Below, one piece after another: positions 1,200 through 11,634 of a DNA stretch of 64,000 nucleotides (position 1 is its first letter; each line of letters starts with the position of its first letter). A model generated the notes under the pieces. It was given only the letters and a program-made list of their open reading frames with translations, was not told where the DNA came from and ran no database searches. The translations under genes and the position numbers were made by a program. Source of the DNA: an uncultured virus (IMG/VR IMGVR_UViG_3300006484_000009) (taxonomy: Duplodnaviria > Heunggongvirae > Uroviricota > Caudoviricetes). The stretch lies in the IMG/VR virus record IMGVR_UViG_3300006484_000009; one strand, 5' to 3'.

Positions 1200-3989
1200 T
1201 TAAAATAATTCAAGTGATGACCTTTTCCAACCATCACTACCTTTAATATATAAATAGTTATCATCTCTAGTTATGTCACCAATTTTACCATAATTATCCA
1301 AACTTGAACTTGGACTATATTCAGGAATTATTAAACTTAGTGGTGATATTGAATTATTTGTAACCCAACTACCCTCTGAATTTAATTTGAATTCAGCATT
1401 AATACCAGAACTAACACCATTTATTAATGATATACCACCACCTATTGCTGTTGCAGTTGTACCATTGTAATTTAATTCAATATTATTATCTTCAGCCGCA
1501 ATAGTTTGTGATTCTAAAATTAAACCATCAGGTGCTGTCATCTCTTTTATTGCTTCAACAATCCATGGGATTATTTCACTATAATTAAGATTTAACATAC
1601 CATCACTTTTAGCTCTATTTCTAACTAATTCAGGTACAATTTCCTGAACCTCTTGTGCTATGAAACCAAATCTAATACCAGAACCCATATTCGATTCTTC
1701 AGTATATTCAAAAGAAACACCTCTTAAATTTTTAATAACATCTAAAGCTGTTGGTAATGTGTTAATATTTCTTTTTAATCTAATATCTGAAACACCAGCA
1801 ACAATTCTACCACTTGCATCAGTAGCTATTGGGTCAGTAGATGTTAAACCGTCTATTACTAAATCTGGAACATAAACTGTGTCAGCTGTCGAACCAGTTA
1901 TATTCTGACCACCAATAACAGCACTACGAGCACCAGTAACTCTTGAATTAGTTGAATGTATAAATGATGTATCACTAATAGCTATTGTTGAACTACCACC
2001 AGCGTGTGAATAGTTACCACTAGCTGTTGTTGAATTACCTTCTGCGTGAGATGAAATACCACCAGCTATCGTTGACTGACCTTCTGCGTGAGATGTTAAA
2101 CCACTAGCTGTTGTATTACTACCCTCAGCATGAGAATAATTACCAATGGTTGTGGTTAATCTACCTTCAGCATGTGATGACCAACCACTAGCGATAGATT
2201 GTTCACCTTCAGCATGTGAAGCAAAATTAGCATATGTATTATACCCCCCAGCATGTGAATAATCACCACCCGCTACACTTAGATAACCTTCAGCGTGTGA
2301 ACCAATACCACTAGCTATTGTGCCACCACCTTCAGCATGTGAATAAGTACCACTAGCTGTTGATAAATAACCTTCAACATGTGAAGCAAACCCAATAGCG
2401 GTAGTTAAAAGACCTTCAGCATGTGAACTAATACCAGAAGCTGTACCACCACTAACAATAATAACACCATTAAAGTAACCACCCTCAGCATGCGAACCAG
2501 CACCAATTGATTGTGAATAATAACCCTCAGCATGTGAAGTATAACCACTAGCTTTTGTACCTTCACCTTCAGCATGTGATATAAGACCACTAGCTATTGT
2601 ATAACTACCTTCAGCATGTGATGCATCACCACTAGCTGTTGTAGCATAACCTTCAGCATGTGAATAACCACCAATAGCTCTTGTTAGACCACCCTCAGCA
2701 TGTGAACCTATACCACTAGCAGTTGAAAATTGACCTTCTGCATGTGAATATTGATTAGTTGTTGATGTTTGATAACCTTGAGCATGTGAATAGTTACCGC
2801 TAGCTATTGTTGCTCTACCTTCAGCGTGTGAATATAAACCACTAGCTGTTGTATTATACCCTTCAGCATGTGAATAATCACTTTCAGCAGTTGTTTGGAA
2901 TCCTTCAGCATGTGAAGTTACACCACTAGCTATTGTACCCGAACCTTCAGCATGTGAGTAATTACCACTTGCGGTTGTTTGATTACCCTCAGCGTGTGAC
3001 GTAATACCACTAGCTACTGTAAACGAACCTTCAGCGTGAGACTTTAAACCACTAGCTGTTGTATTAGAACCCTCAGCGTGTGAACCTTGACTACTGGCTG
3101 TTGTACTCTCACCTTCTGAATGCGAATATTCACCCAATGCTTTTGTTAATGTACCCTCAGCGTGTGCGCTATCGTCACCAGCTACTGTAAACGAACCTTC
3201 AGCATGTGAACTATTACCACTAGCTATTGTACCAATACCTTCAGCATGTGAATACAACCCGATAGCCGTTGTACCATTACCTTCAGCCAAAGCATAGTCA
3301 CCAGAAGCCAAATTACCAGCACTTTCAGTTACAATAGCAAAATTACCAGTTGAAGCTGACCAAAATGTTGTACCAGATGTAACAGCAGATACTGATTGCC
3401 AAGTTGCCATACCTTCAGAATTTGAAGTTAAAACATATCCAATTTGTGGGTTATCACTAACTATTAATTTTTTAGTTCTTAATATTTCAGTATTATCAAC
3501 CCAAATAGTCCTACCTGTAAAATCTAAGGTTTCTGCACTATAAATAAAAAAGTCTGTCGAAACAGTACCACTATAGTTGCCTGGGGTTGGTTCTGACATC
3601 GTTATTGGGTATAAATTAGAAGCACTAACACCAGAGTATGTTAAATTAACTAAATTACCATCTATTATGGTTGTAGAACTACTACCAAATATAGCTGATA
3701 TGTTTTGAGATACACCACTATTACTTGGTGTTAATGCTGATATAGATGAATCAACAGCTGAAACACCTGGGATACCCCATGTGAACACTGTTGTTGCACT
3801 ATTACCCGAATACGAACTAATAACACCAAAATACTGTGATGTTTGTGCCGTGGCCGTTAAATCAGGTCCAGATGTTAATGCACTAAATGGCATACCAAAA
3901 ACTGTAGTACCTGATAAAGTTGTTTCAGTTCTCTCTCTTTGTTTTATTTGTCGATTGTCAGAATAATCTAATTTTGTTCTAAAAGCCAT
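1200..3989 (-). CDS. Tail fibre/spike with YadA-head-like 14-aa repeats and a peptidase S74 intramolecular chaperone domain
   Basis: About 30 SHAEGxxTxASGxx repeats; SDIRLKRNI...GFIAQEV...LNYSEII S74 motif. Confidence 0.85.
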   Translation of the reverse strand: MAFRTKLDYSDNRQIKQRERTETTLSGTTVFGMPFSALTSGPDLTATAQTSQYFGVISSYSGNSATTVFTWGIPGVSAVDSSISALTPSNSGVSQNISAIFGSSSTTIIDGNLVNLTYSGVSASNLYPITMSEPTPGNYSGTVSTDFFIYSAETLDFTGRTIWVDNTEILRTKKLIVSDNPQIGYVLTSNSEGMATWQSVSAVTSGTTFWSASTGNFAIVTESAGNLASGDYALAEGNGTTAIGLYSHAEGIGTIASGNSSHAEGSFTVAGDDSAHAEGTLTKALGEYSHSEGESTTASSQGSHAEGSNTTASGLKSHAEGSFTVASGITSHAEGNQTTASGNYSHAEGSGTIASGVTSHAEGFQTTAESDYSHAEGYNTTASGLYSHAEGRATIASGNYSHAQGYQTSTTNQYSHAEGQFSTASGIGSHAEGGLTRAIGGYSHAEGYATTASGDASHAEGSYTIASGLISHAEGEGTKASGYTSHAEGYYSQSIGAGSHAEGGYFNGVIIVSGGTASGISSHAEGLLTTAIGFASHVEGYLSTASGTYSHAEGGGTIASGIGSHAEGYLSVAGGDYSHAGGYNTYANFASHAEGEQSIASGWSSHAEGRLTTTIGNYSHAEGSNTTASGLTSHAEGQSTIAGGISSHAEGNSTTASGNYSHAGGSSTIAISDTSFIHSTNSRVTGARSAVIGGQNITGSTADTVYVPDLVIDGLTSTDPIATDASGRIVAGVSDIRLKRNINTLPTALDVIKNLRGVSFEYTEESNMGSGIRFGFIAQEVQEIVPELVRNRAKSDGMLNLNYSEIIPWIVEAIKEMTAPDGLILESQTIAAEDNNIELNYNGTTATAIGGGISLINGVSSGINAEFKLNSEGSWVTNNSISPLSLIIPEYSPSSSLDNYGKIGDITRDDNYLYIKGSDGWKRSSLELF
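1985..3300 (-). repeat. 42-nt period coding repeat array (SHAEG repeats)
   Basis: Recurring ccttcagcatgtga...ccactagc units. Confidence 0.9.
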
Positions 3990-4524: not shown

Positions 4525-4950
4525 ATGAATATTAACGAAGAAAATAAAGATTTAGATAAGAAAGGTGATTTTGTTATTATACCAGGTGAATTTAAACATC
4601 ATTTTAAAAGTGATAAAATAAGTTATAGTAATTTAACAACAAAAAAGAATCGTCTTGAAAAAAATCCAAATCCTAACCCAGAAGAAAAAAAACTATTGAA
4701 TTGGATTAATAAAAAGTTAAAAACTGAAATTCAAAAAGATAGAGGACCAAAAGCAGCCAGAATGCATATTGATGCTGAAGGGACAAAGCAAGGTAAAGAT
4801 GGTGGGAACAATTTTAAGAATAGAAAAGCGACTGATGTAGATAGAGTTGGTGAAGTTCTTAAAATTAGAGAATCAGAAATGGAGCAAGAAATGCATTCTA
4901 TTAGATATTTAATAGAATACATGGATAACAATAAAAAAAATAAAATTTAA
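4525..4950 (+). CDS. Hypothetical phage protein
   Basis: ORF track; tight operon spacing. Confidence 0.8.
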   Translation: MNINEENKDLDKKGDFVIIPGEFKHHFKSDKISYSNLTTKKNRLEKNPNPNPEEKKLLNWINKKLKTEIQKDRGPKAARMHIDAEGTKQGKDGGNNFKNRKATDVDRVGEVLKIRESEMEQEMHSIRYLIEYMDNNKKNKI

Positions 4951-4955
4951 AAGTC

Positions 4956-5294
4956 ATGTCAAGTAATAAATTAGAACAAGCCGCAATTGCAACTAGAAAC
5001 ACTTTAATTGCGATTAACAATTATGACAATGTTGATGATGCAAATAACTATACATCAACACACACTAGAGCATTAAGTGACCAACAAACACCAATTAATG
5101 GTAAAGGTACTGGTGTATTTTTGGATACTTACAATGGTGGTGGTAGTTTAGATATTTACGGTAATGCAGCATCTGCTGGTTCAGGTAGATTGGCAGCATT
5201 TGCCAATAACACATCAACTTGGGGATTTGGACCAACTGCGTATTATCAACACCCAGACACATCTGGAAATGTTGGACAAGTAACATTTGGTTAA
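4956..5294 (+). CDS. Hypothetical protein, possibly structural
   Basis: Gly/Asn/Thr-rich ORF. Confidence 0.75.
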   Translation: MSSNKLEQAAIATRNTLIAINNYDNVDDANNYTSTHTRALSDQQTPINGKGTGVFLDTYNGGGSLDIYGNAASAGSGRLAAFANNTSTWGFGPTAYYQHPDTSGNVGQVTFG

Positions 5295-5304
5295 AAATTA
5301 ATAA

Positions 5305-5730
5305 ATGAAACTTTACAATATTTTTCAAGATATTATATTAGAAGAAATATCCAAAGACCAAGAGTTAATTAACGAAGGTACTCTTGAGGATATCAAATCC
5401 GCTATGGAAAATACTGTATATGTTTGGTTTAAATATAAAACAGCTGATGGAGTAATAACAGATAGATATGTTATGCTAGATAAATTAGGAACATCTTTAG
5501 CGAACAATGGTGTTGTTAGATTATGGCAAACTGGTGGTCAAACAACTAAAACTAAAACAAATGGTGGTGTTAATGGTTGGAAATTATTTAGAATAGATAG
5601 AATAATTCCTGGTTCAATTAAACCAACTAACATGAAATACCGTGAACCAGTTCGTTCTGGGGAACCATATAACACAAATGGTGATAGAAAGATGAAAGGT
5701 GCTGTTACTGTTGCAAATTATACAAAATAA
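5305..5730 (+). CDS. WYL-like domain protein
   Basis: VWFKY...DRYV...GWKLFRIDRI resembles the WYL FRxDRI signature. Confidence 0.6.
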   Translation: MKLYNIFQDIILEEISKDQELINEGTLEDIKSAMENTVYVWFKYKTADGVITDRYVMLDKLGTSLANNGVVRLWQTGGQTTKTKTNGGVNGWKLFRIDRIIPGSIKPTNMKYREPVRSGEPYNTNGDRKMKGAVTVANYTK

Positions 5731-5740
5731 AAATTAAATT

Positions 5741-6304
5741 ATGAATATACCACAACCAATAGACGTAAGTAGACTTAAAGGTATTTTAGGTAACGCAAAA
5801 ACATTAATGGCCAAAGTGGAAACTGGTAATTATGAAACTGGACATGTTGATGGTAGAGCATTAACTGAAGAAGGAGTTAAACAATTACAAGCTGAAGGTG
5901 TAAGAAGACCAAGTACTCAAAGTCAACCTCAAATTAATGAATCAAATATTAAAAATTCAAGATTACCAGAATCGATTAAAAAAGCAATGTTGGAAAATCC
6001 AATAGCACAACCAAATGGTATGACACATACATTTACACTTGATGATGTTTATGATATAGCCGATGAAAAACCAATGCCATTACCACAAGCTAGAAAACAA
6101 TCAGTTCATGAAAATGTAAATTATCAACAACCACAACAAAATGTTGTTGGGTATAATGATAATGAATTAAGAGCAATGATGAAAGATGTTTTAATTGAAT
6201 ACTTATCAAATGAATACTCAAAAAATTTAACTGAGTCAGTAATTAAACAAACCATTTCAACATTAATTAACGAAGGTAAGATTACAACTAAGAAAAAAAT
6301 ATAA
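5741..6304 (+). CDS. Hypothetical phage protein
   Basis: ORF track. Confidence 0.8.
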   Translation: MNIPQPIDVSRLKGILGNAKTLMAKVETGNYETGHVDGRALTEEGVKQLQAEGVRRPSTQSQPQINESNIKNSRLPESIKKAMLENPIAQPNGMTHTFTLDDVYDIADEKPMPLPQARKQSVHENVNYQQPQQNVVGYNDNELRAMMKDVLIEYLSNEYSKNLTESVIKQTISTLINEGKITTKKKI

Positions 6305-6323
6305 TAAAAAATAAAATTTTAAA

Positions 6324-6352
6324 AAAAAAGGGGAGGTAACTTCCCTTTTTTC
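6324..6352 (+). terminator. Intrinsic terminator (possibly bidirectional)
   Basis: AAAAAGGGGAG-GTAA-CTTCCCTTTTTT. Confidence 0.8.
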
Positions 6353-6437
6353 ATTTACATTATGTACCATATGATATAATTGGTGTATAGTATTTAGATT
6401 TTTTCAATTATATAAATATTTATAATAAAAAAACTAT

Positions 6438-7334
6438 ATGGATAAATTAATTGAAAATAAAATAATAGAACTTTATTTAAGCGGAATTGGGTCAACAACA
6501 ATAGTTAAATTAACTAATATACCCAAACGTAAAATTTTAAATTTACTAAAAAATAAAAATATACTAAGAAATAGACATCATAGTAATGATTTTTATAATC
6601 AATTTTGGAATGAAGATGATATGTGGTGTGGTAATTGGGTTTGTGAAATGTGTAATGAAACAATTAAATTTTGTGTAAATAATAAAGTTTATTTAAATAG
6701 GAATTTAAATAAAAAGAAAATATGTAAAAGTTGTGCAAACAAAAATCAAATGGGTGAAAACAACTCATTTTATAGTAAAAAACATACTGAAAATAGTAAA
6801 AAATTAATATCGGAAAAAAAAATAGGTATTAAGACTAGTGACCACATGAGCACCGATAAATATAGAAAAATAGTTAGTGATTTAGCCAAAGAAAGGTGGC
6901 AAAGTGGTAAAATGGAAAAAACTAGATTAAAATTAAGTCAAATGATGAAAGACAAACACGCTAACGGTGAATTAAAATCAATAAATAGGTCAAAACCTGA
7001 ATTTGAAATAATTGAATATTTAGAAAGTATTAATATAAAATGTGAACCAAGTTATAATGTGGAATCAAAAATATTTGACATATATATACCTAAATATAAT
7101 TTATTAATAGAATATAATGGTGATTATTGGCATTGTAACCCTAAAAAATATGAGGCTGATTATTATAATAAGAAAAAAAATAAAACTGCTAAAGAAATAT
7201 GGGAATATGATAAAAATAAACTTTACTTAGCAAAAAAATATGATTATAATTGTATTGTAATTTGGGAAACAGATTACAAAAAAAATAAAAATATAATAAA
7301 AGAAATTTTTAATAATTATGAACAAATTAAATAA
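6438..7334 (+). mobile_element. Free-standing putative homing endonuclease (Zn-binding CxxC pairs, NUMOD3, Vsr/DUF559-like PD-(D/E)XK domain)
   Basis: CEMC/CKSC; GENNSFYSKKHTENSKKLIS (NUMOD3); FDIYIPKYNLLIEYNGDYWH...IVIWE; own ATATTTAT motif at 6416-6423. Confidence 0.75.
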
Positions 7335-8617
7335 TATGACCCCAGACAGTCGAAAAAAAACTAAGGTATTAGTAGTACCTAGCGACAGGTCTGGGGTCGG
7401 CTGAAGGTTATTTCAGAAGTGTTGCCCCACATGTTGGGTTAGAAAGATTCTACCCAGAAGAATTCCATGTTGATATTAATGAAACCCCAGATTTAAATAA
7501 TGATGAATTTTTAAAACAATATGATATTGTACATTATCATAGAAATTTAGGTCAATATGAACAAATGCCTAGTTTATTAGAAAAATTAAAATCAATGGGT
7601 ATTGTAACGATTATGGATTTAGATGACTATTGGGCACCAGGTCAACACCACCCAGCGTATTTGATTATTAAAAATTCTAAAATGTCTGAAAAAATTCTAG
7701 CAAATATTAAAATTGCTGAAAACATTACAACAACTACAGATGTTTTTGCAAGTGAAATTGGGAAATATAATAAAAAAGTTTTTGTATTGCCAAACGCAAT
7801 TGACCCAACTGAAAAACAATACACACCAAATCCAGAAAAATCTGATAGAATTAGAATTGGGTGGTTAGGTGGTAGCTCACACTTAGAAGATTTAAAACTT
7901 TTAAGTGGGTTAGTTAATAAACTTAAATCAGATGGTTTGATGGATAAAATACAATTTGTATTATGTGGTTTTGATTTAAGAGGTAATGTCACAATGATTG
8001 ACCCTAAAACTGGTGAACAAACGCAAAGACCAATTAAGCCTATGGAAAGTGTATGGTATGAATATGAAAAAATCTTTACGGATAACTATTCAAGCGTTAG
8101 TGAAGGTTATAAAAAACATTTATTATCATTCACAAAAGATGAATATCATGATATAGCTAATGAACCATACAGAAGAGTCTGGACTAAACCAGTTAGCACA
8201 TATGCTACTAATTATAACCTATTTGATATTTCATTAGCACCATTGGCTGATAATCTTTTTAACAAAGTTAAATCACAATTAAAAGTGATTGAATCTGCTT
8301 TCCATAAAAAAGCATTGATTGCTCAAGACTTTGGACCATATCAAATTGATTTGGTTAACGCTAGAGTTAAATCTTTAGATAAAAATAACCCAGTAACATT
8401 TGATGGGACGGGTAACGCTTATTTAGTTAATAATAATGCTAAAGAATGGCATCAGTTTGTTAAAAGATTAATAAATAATCCAGAACAAATTGAAATACTA
8501 TCAAATAATTTATATAATACTATAAAAGATAAATATTCTATTGAAGCTGTTTCTAAACAACGTAGAGAATTATATTTATCACTATTAAAAGAAAAGCAAA
8601 ATGGTAATATTCAGTGA
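7318..8617 (+). CDS. GT-B (GT4-like) glycosyltransferase whose true N-terminus lies in another frame (7318/7336-7401), joined by putative recoding at 7399-7408
   Basis: Frame 1: ...KTKVLVVPSDRSGVG*. Frame 2 from 7406: GYFRSVAPHVGLE..., continuing without a stop into ORF 7565-8617 (MDLDDYW, IGWLGGSSH, KSQLKVIES). Confidence 0.75.
7338..7416 (+). promoter_or_regulatory. Two RNA hairpins around the recoding site
   Basis: GACCCCAGAC (7338-7347) pairs perfectly with GTCTGGGGTC (7389-7398), with inner GTCG/CGAC and AGGTAT/GTACCT stems. CTGAAG-GTTA-TTTCAG (7401-7416) contains the TGA. Confidence 0.75.
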
Positions 8618-8726
8618 GTTCTACAACCTGATTCAGTGTGCATATGATGAAGAAGGAATTATCGGATTTTGTTATTTCGATAAGATAATGATAACCAGAT
8701 ATGGTTTTGAAATATTAAAAAAATAA
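8601..8726 (+). CDS. Small hypothetical protein (41 aa)
   Basis: MVIFSEFYNLIQCAYDEEGIIGFCYFDK...; fills the gap between adjacent genes. Confidence 0.5.
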   Translation: MVIFSEFYNLIQCAYDEEGIIGFCYFDKIMITRYGFEILKK

Positions 8727-8730
8727 AGTT

Positions 8731-9357
8731 ATGGAAAAAATACCTAAAGAAATACTTGATGCTATGAAAATAAATACTCAAGATGCAATAGCGTTTAATG
8801 GTTATTATAAATCTACTGATTTTACACCTAAACGAAAAAAGAAATTAACAATTAAGAATAAATTTAAAAATTTACTTAAGAAGTTTACTAACAAAGTGAA
8901 AAAATCAAAACTATTAATTACAATTAAGAATTGGTATCGTAAAACATTTACTGAACCTATTAGAGTTAAAAAAGCTAAAATAGAAGAAGAAAAATATATT
9001 AAAGAATTAAAAGCCAATTTTTCGAAAAAATTTAATGTTAATATTGAAAAAACAATTTCAATAATGAATAGTCCAGGATATAGTCCACCAAACATTGATA
9101 ATAATCAATTATTAATTGAAAATCGTTTAGATATTAATAAAAGAAAATCAATGTATAAATTTGCACCATTTATTTATGATGTTGATATTGTTGATATACA
9201 TAATGAAAATATTAACCCTGAATACCCATCCATCAATGAGTTAACAACCAGTGGGGATACTGAATCTTTAAATTTACTGGATAAACAACTTGAGTTTTTC
9301 AATAAACGACCACACTTAACAGTTGGTGGTAGAAAAAGAAGTGGTAAATTGTATTAA
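8731..9357 (+). CDS. Lys-rich hypothetical protein
   Basis: ORF track. Confidence 0.75.
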   Translation: MEKIPKEILDAMKINTQDAIAFNGYYKSTDFTPKRKKKLTIKNKFKNLLKKFTNKVKKSKLLITIKNWYRKTFTEPIRVKKAKIEEEKYIKELKANFSKKFNVNIEKTISIMNSPGYSPPNIDNNQLLIENRLDINKRKSMYKFAPFIYDVDIVDIHNENINPEYPSINELTTSGDTESLNLLDKQLEFFNKRPHLTVGGRKRSGKLY

Positions 9358-9385
9358 AATAGTGGTTTTTAATTAAAATATATTA

Positions 9386-9393
9386 TATATTTG
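9386..9393 (+). promoter_or_regulatory. Bacteroidota-type -7 promoter element TATATTTG
   Basis: Matches TAnnTTTG, upstream of 9426. Confidence 0.6.
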
Positions 9394-9425
9394 CACCATA
9401 ACAATTATATTAAAATATTTTATTT

Positions 9426-9983
9426 ATGTCTTTGACTAAAGAAAGAATCCTTAAAAACGCAAAGAAATTTAATGAAACTGGTATTAAACACGGTTTTATT
9501 AATGATGAATTAATGAACCTATTAGGTCCAGAATTTATCGGAGCACCAGCTTGTAGCACAACTAACTTATACAACGCATTTGAAGGTGGATTAATACTTC
9601 ACATTTTAAATACCACTAAATACGCTGTGTCTATTAATGAAATGTTATCAGCTGAAAAGCAAGTACCAGCAGCATCACTAATTAAAGTTTGCTTTTTGCA
9701 CCAAATTGGTAAAGCAAAAATGTTTGTAGAACAAAAATCACAATGGCACCGAGATAATAAAGGTGAAATGTTTATCTTTAATGATGAATTATTAAGTATG
9801 ACAGTTAGTGAACGTTCAGTTTATTACGCAATGTCATCTGGTATTACATTGACTGAAGATGAAGTATTCGCTATGTACAATTATAATGATGATTTTTCAG
9901 GTAGACCCATGACAACTATTGGTGAGAAATTAGCTGCAATTGTTAGAATTGCAAATCAACTATCAGTTATTGAGGAAAAATAA
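9426..9983 (+). CDS. HD-domain-like hydrolase (HD changed to HQ)
   Basis: APA...AFEGGLILH...LHQIGK pattern of phage HD proteins. Confidence 0.6.
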
Positions 9984-9984
9984 T

Positions 9985-10557
9985 ATGGACAATAGAGTAA
10001 ACGAATTATCAGACAAGTTATTTAAAGCTATTGACCCAAATAACCCATACTCCTATGATGAATTCATTCACGAATATGGTAATGGGTATCAAGAATCAAA
10101 TGACTCACCAACTTTTCTAATAAATTTAAATTTTGTTAATAACTCTGAAAATGCAGACCCAGAATATGCAACCGAAGGTTCATCTGGGTTTGATTTAAGA
10201 GCATCAGCTTCTGTAAAAATTTTACCTGGTTGTTATGAAACAGTACCAACTGGTTTATTTTTTGAAATACCACCTAATTTTGAAATTCAAGTCAGACCAA
10301 GAAGTGGTTTAGCTGCAAAGAATGGTGTAACAGTTTTAAATACACCAGGAACTATTGATTCAGATTATAGAGGTGAAATCAAAGTGATATTAATTAATCA
10401 TGGTAAAAAAGTATTCCAAATAGAAATGGGTGATAGAATTGCACAAGGTGTAATCGCACAAACATCAACATCATATATCAAGTTAAACAAAGTTTCAAAA
10501 ATATCTGACGATACAGAAAGAAGTTCAGGTGGTTTTGGTAGTACAGGTATTAAATAA
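9985..10557 (+). CDS. dut: dUTPase (trimeric)
   Basis: [33 protein letters not shown] motifs; start placed at ATG 9985. Confidence 0.95.
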
Positions 10558-10572
10558 AAAAATAAAATAATT

Positions 10573-11634
10573 ATGAGTCAATTTATTGGGGATAAAGACA
10601 TTAAAGTAGATTTTAATGATATATTAATTACACCAGCAATTATAACTGATATTAGTAGTAGAAGTGAAATAAACCCATTCCATTCGAATGGGCTTTTACC
10701 ACTATTTACAGCACCAATGGATACTGTAGTTGATGAAAGTAATGCCGACTTGTTTATGAGTCACAAACTAAATATTTGCTTACCTAGAGGTGAAAATCGA
10801 ACACAACATAGTATGTTCCAAGCATACTCACTTAAACAATTTACAGAAAAGTTTATACTTGATGATTTAGCTGACGTTCTTATTGAACCAATTTATGTTT
10901 TAATAGATACAGCAAATGGTCATATTCTCGAATTAGTTGAAACGACTAGAATAGCAAAAGAGAGATACGGAAATATGATGATACTAATGGTTGGTAATAT
11001 TGCAAATCCAGATACATACAAAGTATTATCTAATGCTGGTGCTGACTATATTCGAGTTGGTATTGGAAATGGAAACGGGTGCTTAACCACACAACAGTTA
11101 GGTATCGGATACCCAATGGCTTCATTAGTTAGAGAATGTTATTATGCTTCATTATCACTAGAAAAACCAGCTAAAATTGTTGCAGATGGTGGTATGAAAG
11201 ATTATTCAGACATTATCAAAGCATTGGCTTTAGGTGCTAACTATGTAATGCTTGGTAGTATCTTAAACAAGTGTGCTGAGTCATGCGGACAAAGCTTTTT
11301 GAAGGATAATGGTCGCCCAGTACCCATTAGTAATTTAGAAGCGGTAAATCACTTTAAAAGAGGTGATTTAGGTGAAGCTACCATTATTAAAGAATTTCGT
11401 GGTATGTCAACCAAAGAAGTACAAAGAAAATGGGGTAATGAAACATTAAAAACATCTGAAGGTGTTGTTAGACATAGACCAGTTGAATACACTCTTGAAC
11501 AATGGGTTGATAATTTCGAATCTTATTTACGTTCAGCAATGAGTTATGTTGGCGCAAGAACACTTGAGGAGTTTGTAGCAAATTCAGAATTTATAAATAT
11601 AACAAATAATTCATATAATCGATTTAAAAAATGA
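10573..11634 (+). CDS. IMP dehydrogenase/GMP reductase family protein
   Basis: TAPMDTV, IDTANGH, RVGIGNGNGCLT, VADGG, FRGMS, LRSAMSYVGA. Confidence 0.9.
   Translation: MSQFIGDKDIKVDFNDILITPAIITDISSRSEINPFHSNGLLPLFTAPMDTVVDESNADLFMSHKLNICLPRGENRTQHSMFQAYSLKQFTEKFILDDLADVLIEPIYVLIDTANGHILELVETTRIAKERYGNMMILMVGNIANPDTYKVLSNAGADYIRVGIGNGNGCLTTQQLGIGYPMASLVRECYYASLSLEKPAKIVADGGMKDYSDIIKALALGANYVMLGSILNKCAESCGQSFLKDNGRPVPISNLEAVNHFKRGDLGEATIIKEFRGMSTKEVQRKWGNETLKTSEGVVRHRPVEYTLEQWVDNFESYLRSAMSYVGARTLEEFVANSEFINITNNSYNRFKK

What the first reader, a model, noticed from the sequence alone, without database searches (positions are those of the whole stretch)
7318..7420. Candidate minimal programmed ribosomal bypass (7-nt stop-hop) in a glycosyltransferase gene
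Seen: from ATG 7318 or 7336 the frame reads ...KTKVLVVPSDRSGVG, a plausible GT-B first beta-strand plus Gly loop. The sequence then reads GGC(7399-7401) TGA A GGT(7406-7408) TAT TTC AGA.... The GGT frame runs open into the annotated 350-aa ORF, has no ATG until 7565, and is closed upstream by TAG at 7373. Take-off at GGC and landing at GGT skips 7 nt and gives ...SDRSGVG-YFRSVAPH..., about 424-430 aa in total. The stop lies inside a hairpin (CTGAAG-GTTA-TTTCAG). A much stronger GC-rich hairpin (10-bp perfect GACCCCAGAC/GTCTGGGGTC plus inner stems), unusual in this AT-rich genome, ends immediately before the take-off codon. Established: GGC and GGU are read by the same tRNA-Gly(GCC). T4 gene 60 bypassing uses matched Gly codons, a stop right after take-off, a take-off stem-loop and a 5' structure. 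Inference: this is an independent, very short bypass element. Alternatives are a +1 shift at GGG-G or a 7-nt RNA excision.
Basis: partly seen in the sequence, partly recalled or inferred. Interest (0 to 1): 0.92.

Follow-up and report, generated by a model that had tools for sequence, protein, structure and literature searches.

The report
Short ribosome hop in phage glycosyltransferase
A large phage's sugar-transferase gene is broken by a 7-base stop-containing insert carried by a selfish endonuclease cassette, and comparison with dozens of relatives indicates that ribosomes skip the insert to make the whole enzyme.

Summary
ORF1 (7318-7401) ends ...VLVVPSDRSGVG-TGA. The GT frame resumes at GGT 7406. 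Intact homologues read a contiguous SDRSGVGYFRS. Contigs from four other runs show the same 7-nt insert without indels.

Sixty unique related alleles are interrupted at the same codon by 29 junction types. Each has take-off GGY or AGY, then a stop (TGA, TAA or TAG), then a landing codon 5 to 13 nt downstream. All three frames occur. The first two bases of the two codons match in 27 of 29 types. Only a hop restores the wild-type junction in every type.

Every interrupted allele, and no intact one, has a roughly -30 kcal/mol hairpin ending at the take-off codon. The hairpin has compensatory changes. The downstream frame is open in 58 of 58 alleles.

The insert is the right end of a 1043-nt cassette (6363-7405). 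The cassette carries a homing endonuclease and a recoded copy of codons 1-18. This parallels T4 gene 60/MobA but uses an unrelated endonuclease, another host gene and a much shorter gap.

Best reading: programmed short translational bypass, about 0.78. No RNA, protein or reporter data were available. The small hairpin around the stop is not conserved.

The parts
6324..6351 (+). Terminator-like hairpin of the upstream gene. It is the last sequence shared with intact alleles before the cassette begins.
   Evidence: One search found the terminator-like site. In one search, the alignment of the window with intact allele L121 breaks after 6362.
6363..7405 (+). Mobile cassette of 1043 nt. It holds the endonuclease gene, a new 5' end for the GT gene and the stop-plus-spacer insert. 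It replaces the 5' UTR and codons 1-18 of the intact allele.
   Evidence: window vs L121. (L003 vs L124): the sequences are 100% identical upstream, and identity resumes exactly at the landing codon.
6438..7334 (+). Homing-endonuclease-like ORF of 298 aa. It has CxxC pairs, NUMOD3 motifs and a C-terminal ...IEYNGDYWHCNP... nuclease-like domain.
   Evidence: ORF. Pfam NUMOD3 22.3 bits against a cut-off of 20.4; REase_MTES_1575 is below its cut-off; phrog_559 'HNH endonuclease' 8e-15 and phrog_3339 'homing endonuclease' 2e-11; family alignment; 80 of 80 homologues lie directly upstream of this GT.
7318..7401 (+). ORF1 of the GT, 28 codons. It comprises an N-terminal extension (MNKLNNMTPDSRKKT) and the cassette's recoded copy of the conserved KVLVVPSDRSGVG. 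It overlaps the endonuclease ORF's end by 17 nt.
   Evidence: in 6 of 7 interrupted/intact sister pairs the 13-residue peptide is identical despite 4-13 nt differences in 39 nt.
7338..7352 (+). 5' arm of the long hairpin (GACCCCAGAC, A, GTCG).
   Evidence: fold. (covariation). (present in all 29 unique relatives folded).
7365..7379 (+). Apical hairpin inside the loop (GGTATT-AGT-AGTACC), which encodes VLVVP.
   Evidence: In one search, helix 2 has 89.5% of cells paired.
7383..7398 (+). 3' arm of the long hairpin (CGAC, AG, GTCTGGGGTC). It ends directly before the take-off codon.
7399..7401 (+). Take-off codon GGC (Gly18, the cassette's copy).
7402..7405 (+). Skipped bases: stop codon TGA plus the spacer A.
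   Evidence: These bases are absent from intact alleles.
7406..7408 (+). Landing codon GGT (the resident Gly18 codon). Identity with intact alleles resumes here.
7409..8617 (+). Resumed GT reading frame (YFRSVAPH... to the stop). With ORF1 it gives a 430-aa GT-B enzyme.
   Evidence: AlphaFold model of the intact 98%-identical homologue, pLDDT 96.1. Foldseek matches to GT4-type GT-B enzymes, E 1e-13 to 1e-10.
7401..7416 (+). Small hairpin CTGAAG/TTTCAG around the stop. It is seen in the window and its closest relatives only and is probably not a general signal.
   Evidence: -4.8 kcal/mol, z -0.6; over 36 relatives the mean z is -0.67 with no common structure.

Best explanation
**What it is.** The GT gene is decoded by a programmed short translational bypass, a 'stop-hop'.

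**Proposed steps**
1. Ribosomes start at ATG 7318 and translate 28 codons.
2. They pause with peptidyl-tRNA-Gly on GGC (7399-7401) in the P site and TGA in the A site.
3. The tRNA unpairs, the mRNA slides 7 nt, and the tRNA re-pairs on GGT (7406-7408).
4. Decoding resumes at TAT 7409. The product is the wild-type junction ...SDRSGVG-YFRS... and a 430-aa GT-B glycosyltransferase.

**Likely driver.** The strong hairpin has a 3' arm that ends at the take-off codon. That arm is held open inside the ribosome, and it can re-pair with its waiting 5' arm only if the mRNA moves forward. This is the role proposed for the 5' stem-loop of T4 gene 60.

**Origin of the insert.** The insert is the right end of a 1043-nt homing-endonuclease cassette (6363-7405). 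The cassette replaces the gene's 5' end with a recoded copy. The insert probably splits the endonuclease's target site, so the cassette is immune to its own enzyme while the host gene stays usable.

**Shown and inferred.** The anatomy, its conservation, the covariation, the selection on both coding pieces and the cassette boundaries are shown. The hop itself, its efficiency, the hairpin's role and the immunity function are inferred.
For: **(1) The junction matches intact homologues.** They read a contiguous VLVVPSDRSGVGYFRS. G16 is at least 90% conserved and R21 is invariant in 79 diverse family members, so the break lies inside a conserved motif. In the AlphaFold model that motif is the beta1-loop-alpha1 of a GT-B fold.

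**(2) Many junction types follow one rule.**
- There are 60 unique interrupted alleles and 29 junction types at this codon.
- Displacements are 5, 6, 7, 8, 9, 10, 11, 12 and 13 nt. The frame classes hold 11, 6 and 12 types.
- A stop (TGA, TAA or TAG) always follows the take-off codon.
- The landing codon matches the first two bases of the take-off codon in 27 of 29 types and is identical in 15.
- Only a hop gives the wild-type-length junction in all types.
- 24 of the 29 types were found by protein-anchored searches that forced no DNA feature.

**(3) The hairpin goes with the interruption.**
- Window: -35.4 kcal/mol, z -7.0.
- 29 unique interrupted alleles: mean -29.7 kcal/mol. 55 unique intact alleles: mean -7.1.
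- Independent endonuclease-anchored set: -29.9 against -6.4.
- Covariation on 19 distinct sequences: 91.7% of cells paired against 31-48% when the partners are slid. 26 doubly changed cells against 7.0 +/- 2.6 in shuffles (0 of 500 reach it). One pair shows CG, UA, GC and AU.

**(4) Both coding pieces are under selection.**
- The cassette's 13-codon copy encodes the same peptide as the intact sister allele in 6 of 7 pairs, despite 4-13 nt changes.
- The downstream frame is open for at least 330 codons in 58 of 58 interrupted alleles with enough sequence.
- In an all-interrupted clade of 11, pN/pS is 0.20 for the stretch upstream of the internal Met and 0.32 for the rest.
- In the window's own population, 16 of 17 variable places are third codon positions of the GT frame. 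This includes all 10 places between 7438 and 7564 (table, positions counted by hand).

**(5) It is not an assembly artefact.** Contigs of 4 runs from 4 studies cross the site with 0 gaps.

**(6) The cassette ends at the landing codon.** Identity with intact sisters resumes exactly there. The element carries an endonuclease, and 80 of 80 homologues of it lie upstream of this GT.

**(7) Loss of the insert goes with loss of the hairpin.** L173 lacks both the 29-nt 5'-arm block and the 6-nt insert that its sister L170 has.
Against: - No RNA-seq, ribosome profiling, proteomics or reporter data exist. Translation across the gap is inferred, and its efficiency is unknown.
- The matched take-off and landing codons follow partly from how the element is built. 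The cassette's copy of codon 18 abuts the resident codon 18. The match is therefore not independent proof of tRNA re-pairing.
- Identical or near-identical cassettes sit in GT genes that differ by 20-30% (L097/L117 1.00 against 0.71; L086/L114 0.93 against 0.70). The cassette therefore moves, many invasions may be recent, and open frames and low dN/dS in GT bodies partly reflect history before invasion.
- 2 of 29 junction types pair AGT with GGC, which needs a first-position G.U. One type pairs AGC with AGA.
- 32 of 80 endonuclease homologues sit upstream of an uninterrupted GT without a hairpin. The endonuclease can therefore reside there without any bypass.
- Many take-off codons and the GGGG run were forced by the search pattern.
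- The hairpin could have another role, such as mRNA stability or control of initiation.
Confidence: 0.78

Rival explanations
1. Selfish cassette that simply kills the gene. The endonuclease cassette invades and inactivates a dispensable GT. The interrupted alleles are young pseudogenes, or give only a truncated product from Met 7565. The matched codons are a by-product of the junction.
For: - The cassette is mobile relative to the GT body.
- Interrupted alleles are scattered on the GT tree. At least 19 changes are needed, and 14 are forced by well-supported branches, among 146 rows.
- Gene callers start several relatives at the internal Met.
- The matched codons follow from the element's structure.
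Against: - The cassette keeps a start codon and a recoded but peptide-identical copy of the conserved N-terminus (6 of 7 sister pairs). A dead gene would not need this.
- 58 of 58 interrupted alleles keep the frame open.
- Third-position-only variation extends upstream of Met 7565.
- pN/pS is 0.20 in that stretch.
- A covarying hairpin is tied to the insert and is lost together with it.
- A product from Met 7565 would lack beta1, alpha1 and two further strands of the N-terminal Rossmann domain.
Confidence: 0.08
2. Other recoding. Depending on the allele, the gap is passed by stop-codon readthrough (in-frame types) or by +1 or -1 frameshifting near the stop or at GGG-G. This would give products with 1-4 extra or changed residues rather than a hop.
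For: - 11 of 29 types are in frame.
- GGG-G is present in all interrupted alleles.
- Stops in the A site are known to promote shifts (established knowledge of prfB-type +1 frameshifting).
Against: - It needs three different mechanisms at one homologous site.
- Some spacers hold a second in-frame stop (GGC TGA ATT TAA A GGA).
- The extra residues would fall between G16 and R21 in the most conserved motif.
- GGGG is explained by its pairing with CCCC in the stem.
- A shift at GGG-G would ruin the in-frame types.
Confidence: 0.08
3. RNA- or DNA-level removal. The 5-13 nt are removed or absent in part of the molecules, by RNA processing or editing or by a mixed population. Standard translation then makes the enzyme.
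For: - No RNA holder was available, and only contigs could be laid. Contigs drop rare variants.
Against: - No known mechanism excises 5-13 nt precisely at matched codons in bacteria or phages. This rests on my own knowledge.
- There is no homopolymer that would allow transcriptional slippage.
- Four independent assemblies carry the insert.
- This reading does not explain why a stop always follows the take-off codon.
Confidence: 0.03
4. Assembly or sequencing indel in the window.
For: None found.
Against: - Contigs of 4 other runs from 4 studies show 0 gaps across the site.
- 20 runs from 20 studies hold at least 60% of the sampled words.
- The same junction occurs in divergent loci L003, L137 and L146.
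Confidence: 0.005

Closest known systems
T4 gene 60 bypass cassette within the MobA homing-endonuclease element. Sources: preprint 10.1101/2022.08.31.505936 (passages read) and the abstract of 10.1101/2024.12.09.627546.
   Same: - Take-off and landing codons are matched, often Gly.
- A stop follows directly after take-off.
- A 5' mRNA structure lies behind the ribosome.
- The insert sits at the right end of a roughly 1.0-1.1-kb endonuclease element, which ends at the landing codon.
- The element supplies an N-terminal extension and a recoded homologous copy ('HomR') of the host gene piece it replaces.
- The extension overlaps the endonuclease ORF out of frame.
- There are decayed endonucleases and 'hit-and-run' alleles.
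   Different: - The gap is 5-13 nt, not 50 nt.
- There is no conserved take-off stem-loop.
- The host gene is a GT, not topoisomerase II.
- The element sits at the gene's 5' end and does not split the gene into two ORFs.
- The endonuclease has NUMOD3 motifs and an ...IEYNGDYWHCNP... domain with a sub-cut-off Pfam match to REase_MTES_1575, rather than being the HNH MobA. No sequence homology to MobA was tested or seen.
- The role of the nascent peptide is unknown.
- Nothing is shown experimentally.
Synthetic 'stop-hops' in E. coli, with matched codons flanking a stop. Described in Atkins et al. 2016, PMC5009743 (passages read).
   Same: - Peptidyl-tRNA leaves a codon next to a stop and re-pairs on a matched codon a few bases on.
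- The 6-nt class here (for example GGT TAA GGC) has exactly that layout.
   Different: - The synthetic cases were low-efficiency events.
- The review states that no natural in-frame stop-hop was known.
- Here there is a natural, conserved family with a dedicated hairpin and with out-of-frame variants.
Mitochondrial 'byps' of Magnusiomyces capitatus. Mentioned in PMC5009743; the details are recalled.
   Same: - Short mobile inserts in coding sequence are neutralised by translational bypass with matched codons.
   Different: - The inserts are 27-55 nt (recalled).
- They are mitochondrial.
- No endonuclease cassette is involved.
- The structure lies within the gap rather than upstream.
Free-standing homing endonucleases of T4-like phages (seg and mob genes). 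Source: listing of PMC2988022; otherwise recalled.
   Same: - An endonuclease gene is inserted between genes.
- It spreads together with flanking sequence of the neighbouring gene.
- It is patchily distributed among close relatives.
   Different: - Those elements normally gain immunity through substitutions in the target, not through an insert that must be bypassed.
- The 32 endonuclease-plus-intact-GT loci fit that ordinary pattern.

Membership tests
Programmed translational bypassing (hopping) | The coding sequence is discontinuous, and homologues read straight across the gap. | tested here: met
   Intact alleles read ...GV[GS][YFKAH][FY]RS contiguously. The window has 7 extra nt.
Programmed translational bypassing (hopping) | Take-off and landing codons are matched for re-pairing of one peptidyl-tRNA. 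| tested here: met
   27 of 29 junction types match in the first two bases, and 15 of 29 are identical. The window has GGC/GGT. Caveat: part of the match follows from the cassette's structure.
Programmed translational bypassing (hopping) | A slow-to-decode A-site codon (a stop) lies directly 3' of take-off. | tested here: met
   29 of 29 types have it (TGA, TAA or TAG). It was unforced in the 24 types from protein-anchored sets.
Programmed translational bypassing (hopping) | Stimulatory mRNA structure conserved by covariation. | tested here: met
   That the structure stimulates the hop is inferred.
Programmed translational bypassing (hopping) | A single polypeptide spanning the gap is detected. 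| not testable with these tools
   No RNA holder was listed. No proteomics or reporter data exist.
T4 gene 60 / MobA cassette (homologous family) | 50-nt coding gap with a take-off stem-loop that includes the take-off codon. | tested here: not met
   The gap is 5-13 nt. The small hairpin at the stop is not conserved.
T4 gene 60 / MobA cassette (homologous family) | HNH endonuclease MobA inserted in the topoisomerase II large-subunit gene. | tested here: not met
   The host gene is a GT-B glycosyltransferase. The endonuclease has NUMOD3 and a sub-cut-off Pfam match to REase_MTES_1575. One PHROG family it hits is labelled 'HNH endonuclease', but no HNH Pfam domain was found. The preprint states that MobA elements occur only in Topo2L.
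T4 gene 60 / MobA cassette (homologous family) | The element ends at the landing codon and carries a recoded homologous region plus an N-terminal extension. | tested here: met
   This is analogous architecture, not evidence of common descent.
Homing endonuclease mobile cassette | Endonuclease gene with patchy presence among near-identical host alleles and clean insertion boundaries. | tested here: met
Homing endonuclease mobile cassette | Cleavage of the insert-free allele, with protection of the insert-bearing allele. | not testable with these tools
   Needs enzyme assays or mixed infections.
GT-B (GT4-like) glycosyltransferase | Two Rossmann-like domains, with an N-terminal beta1 / Gly-rich loop / alpha1. 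| tested here: met
   pLDDT 96.1, strand E5-10 and helix H16-32. GlgM, MshA, PglA, BshA and PimA, E 1e-13 to 1e-10, TM 0.5-0.66. There was no Pfam hit and no PDB sequence hit.

The most novel reading that the evidence does not exclude
This is the first natural family of short-range 'stop-hops'. It is a compact, portable module of about 100 nt: an N-terminal extension encoding a 5' arm, a recoded 3' arm ending at a GGY or AGY take-off codon, a stop, a 0-7-nt spacer (or one-base overlap with the stop), and a matched landing codon. Refolding of a hairpin behind the ribosome pulls the mRNA forward by a tunable 5-13 nt. The module arose independently of T4 gene 60 as the self-immunity device of an unrelated homing endonuclease. 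On this reading, endonuclease-linked bypass is a recurrent evolutionary solution rather than a single oddity.
Probability: 0.7. Interest if true: 0.93.

Novelty: new variant of a known kind. Interest (0 to 1): 0.9.

Why it matters
- **Rarity.** Efficient programmed bypassing has rested for decades on one bacterial-virus example, T4 gene 60. A 2022 preprint still calls that cassette unique and restricted to topoisomerase genes.
- **A long-presumed gap.** The 2016 review by Atkins and colleagues says shorter natural counterparts had 'long been presumed' and that no natural in-frame stop-hop was known.
- **What this family adds.** It offers dozens of natural variants, with nine gap lengths, three stop codons and two tRNA species. 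All share one simple upstream hairpin.
- **A ready mutational series.** The variants could test whether mRNA refolding at the ribosome's exit drives forward sliding.
- **Annotation.** These genes are being annotated as truncated 350-360-aa proteins. Metagenomic pipelines therefore miss this class.
- **Selfish elements.** Selfish endonucleases appear to have evolved translational 'healing' of their insertion scars at least twice. In some lineages this sits alongside an intein in the same gene.

Tried and rejected
- **Near-identical DNA in the phage collection.** No match.
- **Pfam on the GT.** No family. The PDB sequence-profile search also gave no hit.
- **First AlphaFold job.** On a 14-sequence alignment the model was poor (pLDDT 53.7). 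It was replaced by a 79-sequence alignment.
- **Gapless pair counting anchored on CCCC/GGGG.** It failed because of bulges and register shifts. It was replaced by per-sequence folds and a register-consistent sub-alignment.
- **First pairwise-identity script.** It timed out and was redone from multiple alignments.
- **Small hairpin around the stop.** Not conserved.
- **Rfam.** Nothing reached a gathering score. The three weak matches lie on the upstream terminator.
- **tRNA genes in the window.** None, so no phage-borne suppressor or special tRNA is visible within these 64 kb.
- **Endonuclease paralogues in the window.** None.
- **Whole-genome searches of the window's own record.** Not possible.
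- **RNA evidence.** No RNA holder was listed. Only contigs, not raw reads, could be laid, so minority forms without the insert cannot be excluded.
- **All-interrupted clade argument.** The dN/dS of that clade was first taken as proof of long persistence of the interrupted state. It was then down-weighted, because cassettes are far more alike than the GT bodies they sit in.
- **Tree caveat.** The tree (FastTree) misplaces five intein-bearing rows on a long branch, so the count of 19 changes is approximate.
- **Earlier findings of this scan.** None for this genome.
- **Print search.** Searches found no paper describing a bypass in a phage glycosyltransferase or a natural stop-hop family. Subscription journals are not covered.
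Full report
**1. The observation**

- The window reads ATG 7318 ... GTC GGC TGA A GGT TAT TTC AGA.
- ORF 7318-7404 encodes MNKLNNMTPDSRKKTKVLVVPSDRSGVG followed by a stop.
- The next frame is open from 7376 to 8617. Its first ATG, GTG or TTG is at 7565.
- The stretch 7330-7420 folds at -35.4 kcal/mol, z -7.0, and 0 of 200 dinucleotide shuffles fold as well. The fold has three parts:
  - a 10-bp outer stem, 7338-7347 with 7389-7398, which ends directly before GGC;
  - an inner 4-bp stem and an apical hairpin;
  - a separate 6-bp hairpin, 7401-7416, around the stop.

**2. Homologues read across the gap**

- The protein search found 7814 relatives with E at or below 1e-5 among 8000 scored candidates.
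- The closest full-length ones (P0002 at 98% identity, and others at 82-91%) begin MNKK[VI]KVLVVPSDRSGVGYFRSVAPH. The window therefore carries 7 extra bases inside a conserved motif.
- Several relatives were called from the internal Met only. P0022 is 350 aa, 99% identical and has 11 member sequences. P0043, P0051, P0054-57 and P0074 behave the same way. This suggests the same break elsewhere.
- PHROGs calls the protein a glycosyltransferase (phrog_7162, 1e-40).
- An AlphaFold model of P0002 on a 79-sequence alignment (pLDDT 96.1) matches GT4-type GT-B enzymes: GlgM, MshA, PglA, BshA and PimA, with E 1e-13 to 1e-10.
- The break (G18|Y19) lies at the start of helix alpha1, after strand beta1 (E5-10, H16-32). 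It falls between G16 (at least 90% conserved) and the invariant R21.

**3. Not an assembly artefact**

- Twenty runs from 20 studies hold at least 60% of the sampled words. They come from marine and lake-water metagenomes.
- Contigs of X2, X3, X4 and X6 cross 7390-7410 with 0 gaps (table 8). No indel row was reported (table 4).
- The 18 variant rows fall at 17 places. By my count from the table, 16 of these are third codon positions of the GT frame. That includes all 10 places between 7438 and 7564, which lie upstream of the annotated start.

**4. The same codon is interrupted in many divergent relatives, by a rule**

How often it occurs:
- Among the 80 best viral-contig relatives, 6 of 79 informative loci are interrupted.
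- Among the 80 best metagenome loci, 10 are interrupted, 69 are intact and 1 is cut. One of the 10 is the window's own contig, L120.
- A DNA pattern scan gave 39 hits, of which 37 are this gene.
- A second scan that left the take-off codon free gave 39 hits, all with GGY or AGY take-off.
- An endonuclease-anchored search added 48 more interrupted loci with no DNA feature forced.
- In all there are 60 unique interrupted and 123 unique intact alleles.

The junction types:
- There are 29 types, for example AGT TG[A GC], GGT TA[G GT], GGT TAA GGC, GGC TGA A GGT (the window), AGC TGA AA AGT, AGC TGA CTA AGC, GGC TGA ATTA GGT, GGT TAA CTAAA GGT, GGT TAA CAAAAC GGT and GGC TGA ATTTAAA GGA.
- Displacements run from 5 to 13 nt. 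By displacement modulo 3 there are 11 types at 0, 6 at 1 and 12 at 2.
- A stop follows the take-off codon in 29 of 29 types.
- The landing codon shares the first two bases with the take-off codon in 27 of 29 types. The two exceptions are AGT to GGC.
- In every type, resuming after the landing codon gives the wild-type-length junction GV[GS]|x[FY]RS.
- No single frameshift or readthrough event can do this. One spacer even holds a second in-frame stop.

**5. The hairpin belongs to the interruption**

- The 72 nt ending at the take-off codon fold at a mean of -29.7 kcal/mol in 29 unique interrupted alleles. The range is -23.7 to -37.6 and the mean z is -5.4.
- In 55 unique intact alleles the mean is -7.1 and the best is -12.6.
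- In the endonuclease-anchored set the means are -29.9 (31 unique) and -6.4 (17 unique).
- Covariation was measured on a register-consistent alignment of 20 sequences, 19 of them distinct:
  - 91.7% of cells pair, against 31-48% when the partners are slid.
  - 26 cells changed on both sides, against 7.0 +/- 2.6 in shuffles (0 of 500 reach the observed value).
  - The covariation score is 0.221 against 0.107.
  - The pair next to the take-off codon shows CG 6, UA 6, GC 4 and AU 3 with none unpaired.
- The first base of the take-off codon is itself paired in 21 of 32 folds, C with G or T with A.
- The Gly16 codon is GGG in 32 of 32 interrupted alleles and in 11 of 103 intact ones. It pairs with CCCC in the extension.
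- The small hairpin around the stop is not conserved. The mean z is -0.67 over 36 sequences, and the window's z is -0.6.

**6. It is the right end of a homing-endonuclease cassette**

- The 298-aa ORF 6438-7334 has NUMOD3 motifs (Pfam, just above the cut-off). It matches PHROG families labelled 'homing endonuclease' and 'HNH endonuclease'. Its C-terminal ...IEYNGDYWHCNP... domain is conserved.
- Against the intact allele L121, the window shares sequence up to 6362, just after the upstream gene's terminator at 6324-6351. It shares sequence again from the GT 5' region onward.
- In the cleanest pair, L003 against L124, the sequences are 100% identical upstream. Then comes the cassette, and identity resumes exactly at the landing codon.
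- The cassette therefore brings four things:
  - the endonuclease gene;
  - a new start with an N-terminal extension that encodes the 5' arm;
  - a recoded copy of codons 1-18;
  - the stop and spacer.
- The take-off codon is the cassette's copy of codon 18, and the landing codon is the resident one.
- In 6 of 7 interrupted/intact sister pairs, the 13-residue peptide of the recoded copy is identical despite 4-13 nt differences in 39 nt.
- Distribution and mobility:
  - All 80 best endonuclease homologues lie directly upstream of this GT. Of these, 48 have the interruption. The other 32 come from a more distant subfamily and have an uninterrupted GT and no hairpin.
  - Among loci L001-L119, the window's endonuclease hit 25 of 43 interrupted locus entries, some only as remnants, and 0 of 73 intact ones.
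  - Cassettes can be identical where the GT bodies differ by about 30%.
  - Interrupted alleles are scattered over the GT tree. At least 19 changes are needed, 14 forced by well-supported branches, among 146 rows. This fits homing.
- Alleles that look like loss events exist. L048 keeps the 5' arm but has no insert. L173 lacks both the 5'-arm block and the 6-nt insert of its sister L170.

**7. Is the interrupted gene alive?**

- 58 of 58 interrupted alleles with enough sequence keep the frame open for at least 330 codons, as do 121 of 121 intact ones.
- In an all-interrupted clade of 11, synonymous sites are near saturation (pS 0.18-0.76 in the main region) while pN is 0.01-0.27. The pN/pS ratio is 0.20 upstream of the internal Met and 0.32 downstream.
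- Because cassettes move, this partly reflects history before invasion.
- The stronger arguments are the peptide-preserving recoded copy, the covarying hairpin, the third-position variation in the window's own population, and the rule-bound junctions.

**8. Mechanism (inferred)**

- With GGC in the P site and TGA in the A site, the 3' arm lies inside the ribosome. The 5' arm and the apical hairpin are already outside.
- Forward sliding by 5-13 nt lets the G+C-rich outer stem re-form.
- This is the role assigned to the 5' stem-loop and to pairing of exiting mRNA in T4 gene 60 (abstract of 10.1101/2024.12.09.627546).
- The stop supplies the pause, and the matched codon supplies the landing site.
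- Take-off codons are only GGY or AGY. Among intact alleles, 43 of 103 have GGY or AGY at codon 18. The two codon families would be read by G34 tRNAs, Gly-GCC and Ser-GCU (established knowledge). Whether this restriction is a mechanistic need or shared descent is open.
- The insert probably splits the endonuclease's target, as shown for MobA (passages of 10.1101/2022.08.31.505936). This is not tested here.

**9. Comparison and novelty**

- The architecture parallels the MobA/gene 60 element. Both have an N-terminal extension, a recoded homologous region, an element end at the landing codon, an out-of-frame overlap with the endonuclease ORF, decayed endonucleases and hit-and-run alleles.
- The gap length, the host gene, the position in the gene, the endonuclease type and the lack of a conserved take-off stem-loop all differ. 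It is not a member of that family.
- The 2016 review states that synthetic stop-hops exist, that shorter natural counterparts were long presumed, and that no natural in-frame stop-hop was known.
- The 2022 preprint calls the gene 60 cassette unique.
- Five literature searches found no description of this system.

**10. Verdict**

- Observation: confirmed.
- Interpretation: supported by comparative evidence, with confidence 0.78.
- Classification: a new variant of a known kind.
- Still awaited: direct proof that translation crosses the gap.

Noticed in passing
L081, L083, L087, L093 and L111 (GT gene, about 165 codons after the landing codon). The corresponding window site is ...RIGWLGGS|SHLEDL, about 7900-7920.: In five interrupted relatives the same GT also carries an intein-like insert right after GWLGGS. 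It begins C[MV]TPDTEILT and has a LAGLIDADG-like core. Many family members of 700-834 aa with two matched stretches fit this. The window's gene has no intein.
   Followed up: partly
L048 (about 2950-3030), L173 vs L170, and L049 upstream of its ATG.: These look like 'hit-and-run' alleles. L048 keeps the N-terminal extension with the 5' arm but has no stop insert and a mutated 3' arm. L173 lacks both the 29-nt 5'-arm block and the 6-nt insert of its near-identical sister L170. L049 has a 5'-arm-like fragment in its 5' UTR.
   Followed up: partly
L282, L287-L314 and L316-L318.: A more distant subfamily of the same endonuclease (31-51% identity) sits directly upstream of an uninterrupted GT. These loci have no extension and no hairpin. 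They may represent the ancestral free-standing state.
   Followed up: partly
window 7565-8617, and proteins P0022, P0043, P0051, P0054-57 and P0074.: Public gene calls start these genes at the internal Met, giving 346-361 aa. The N-terminal 70 residues are missed, so interrupted alleles are systematically mis-annotated as short proteins.
   Followed up: yes
window 7406-8617.: The GT has no Pfam-A hit and no PDB sequence hit, although its predicted fold is clearly GT-B/GT4-like. The family is large, with 4664 representatives at E of 1e-3 or better.
   Followed up: yes
window 4854-11114, which equals L120.: The window is identical over 6261 bases to a locus on a metagenome contig of 267,663 bases. 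It therefore most likely comes from a large (jumbo-size) phage genome. No tRNA gene lies within the 64-kb window.
   Followed up: no
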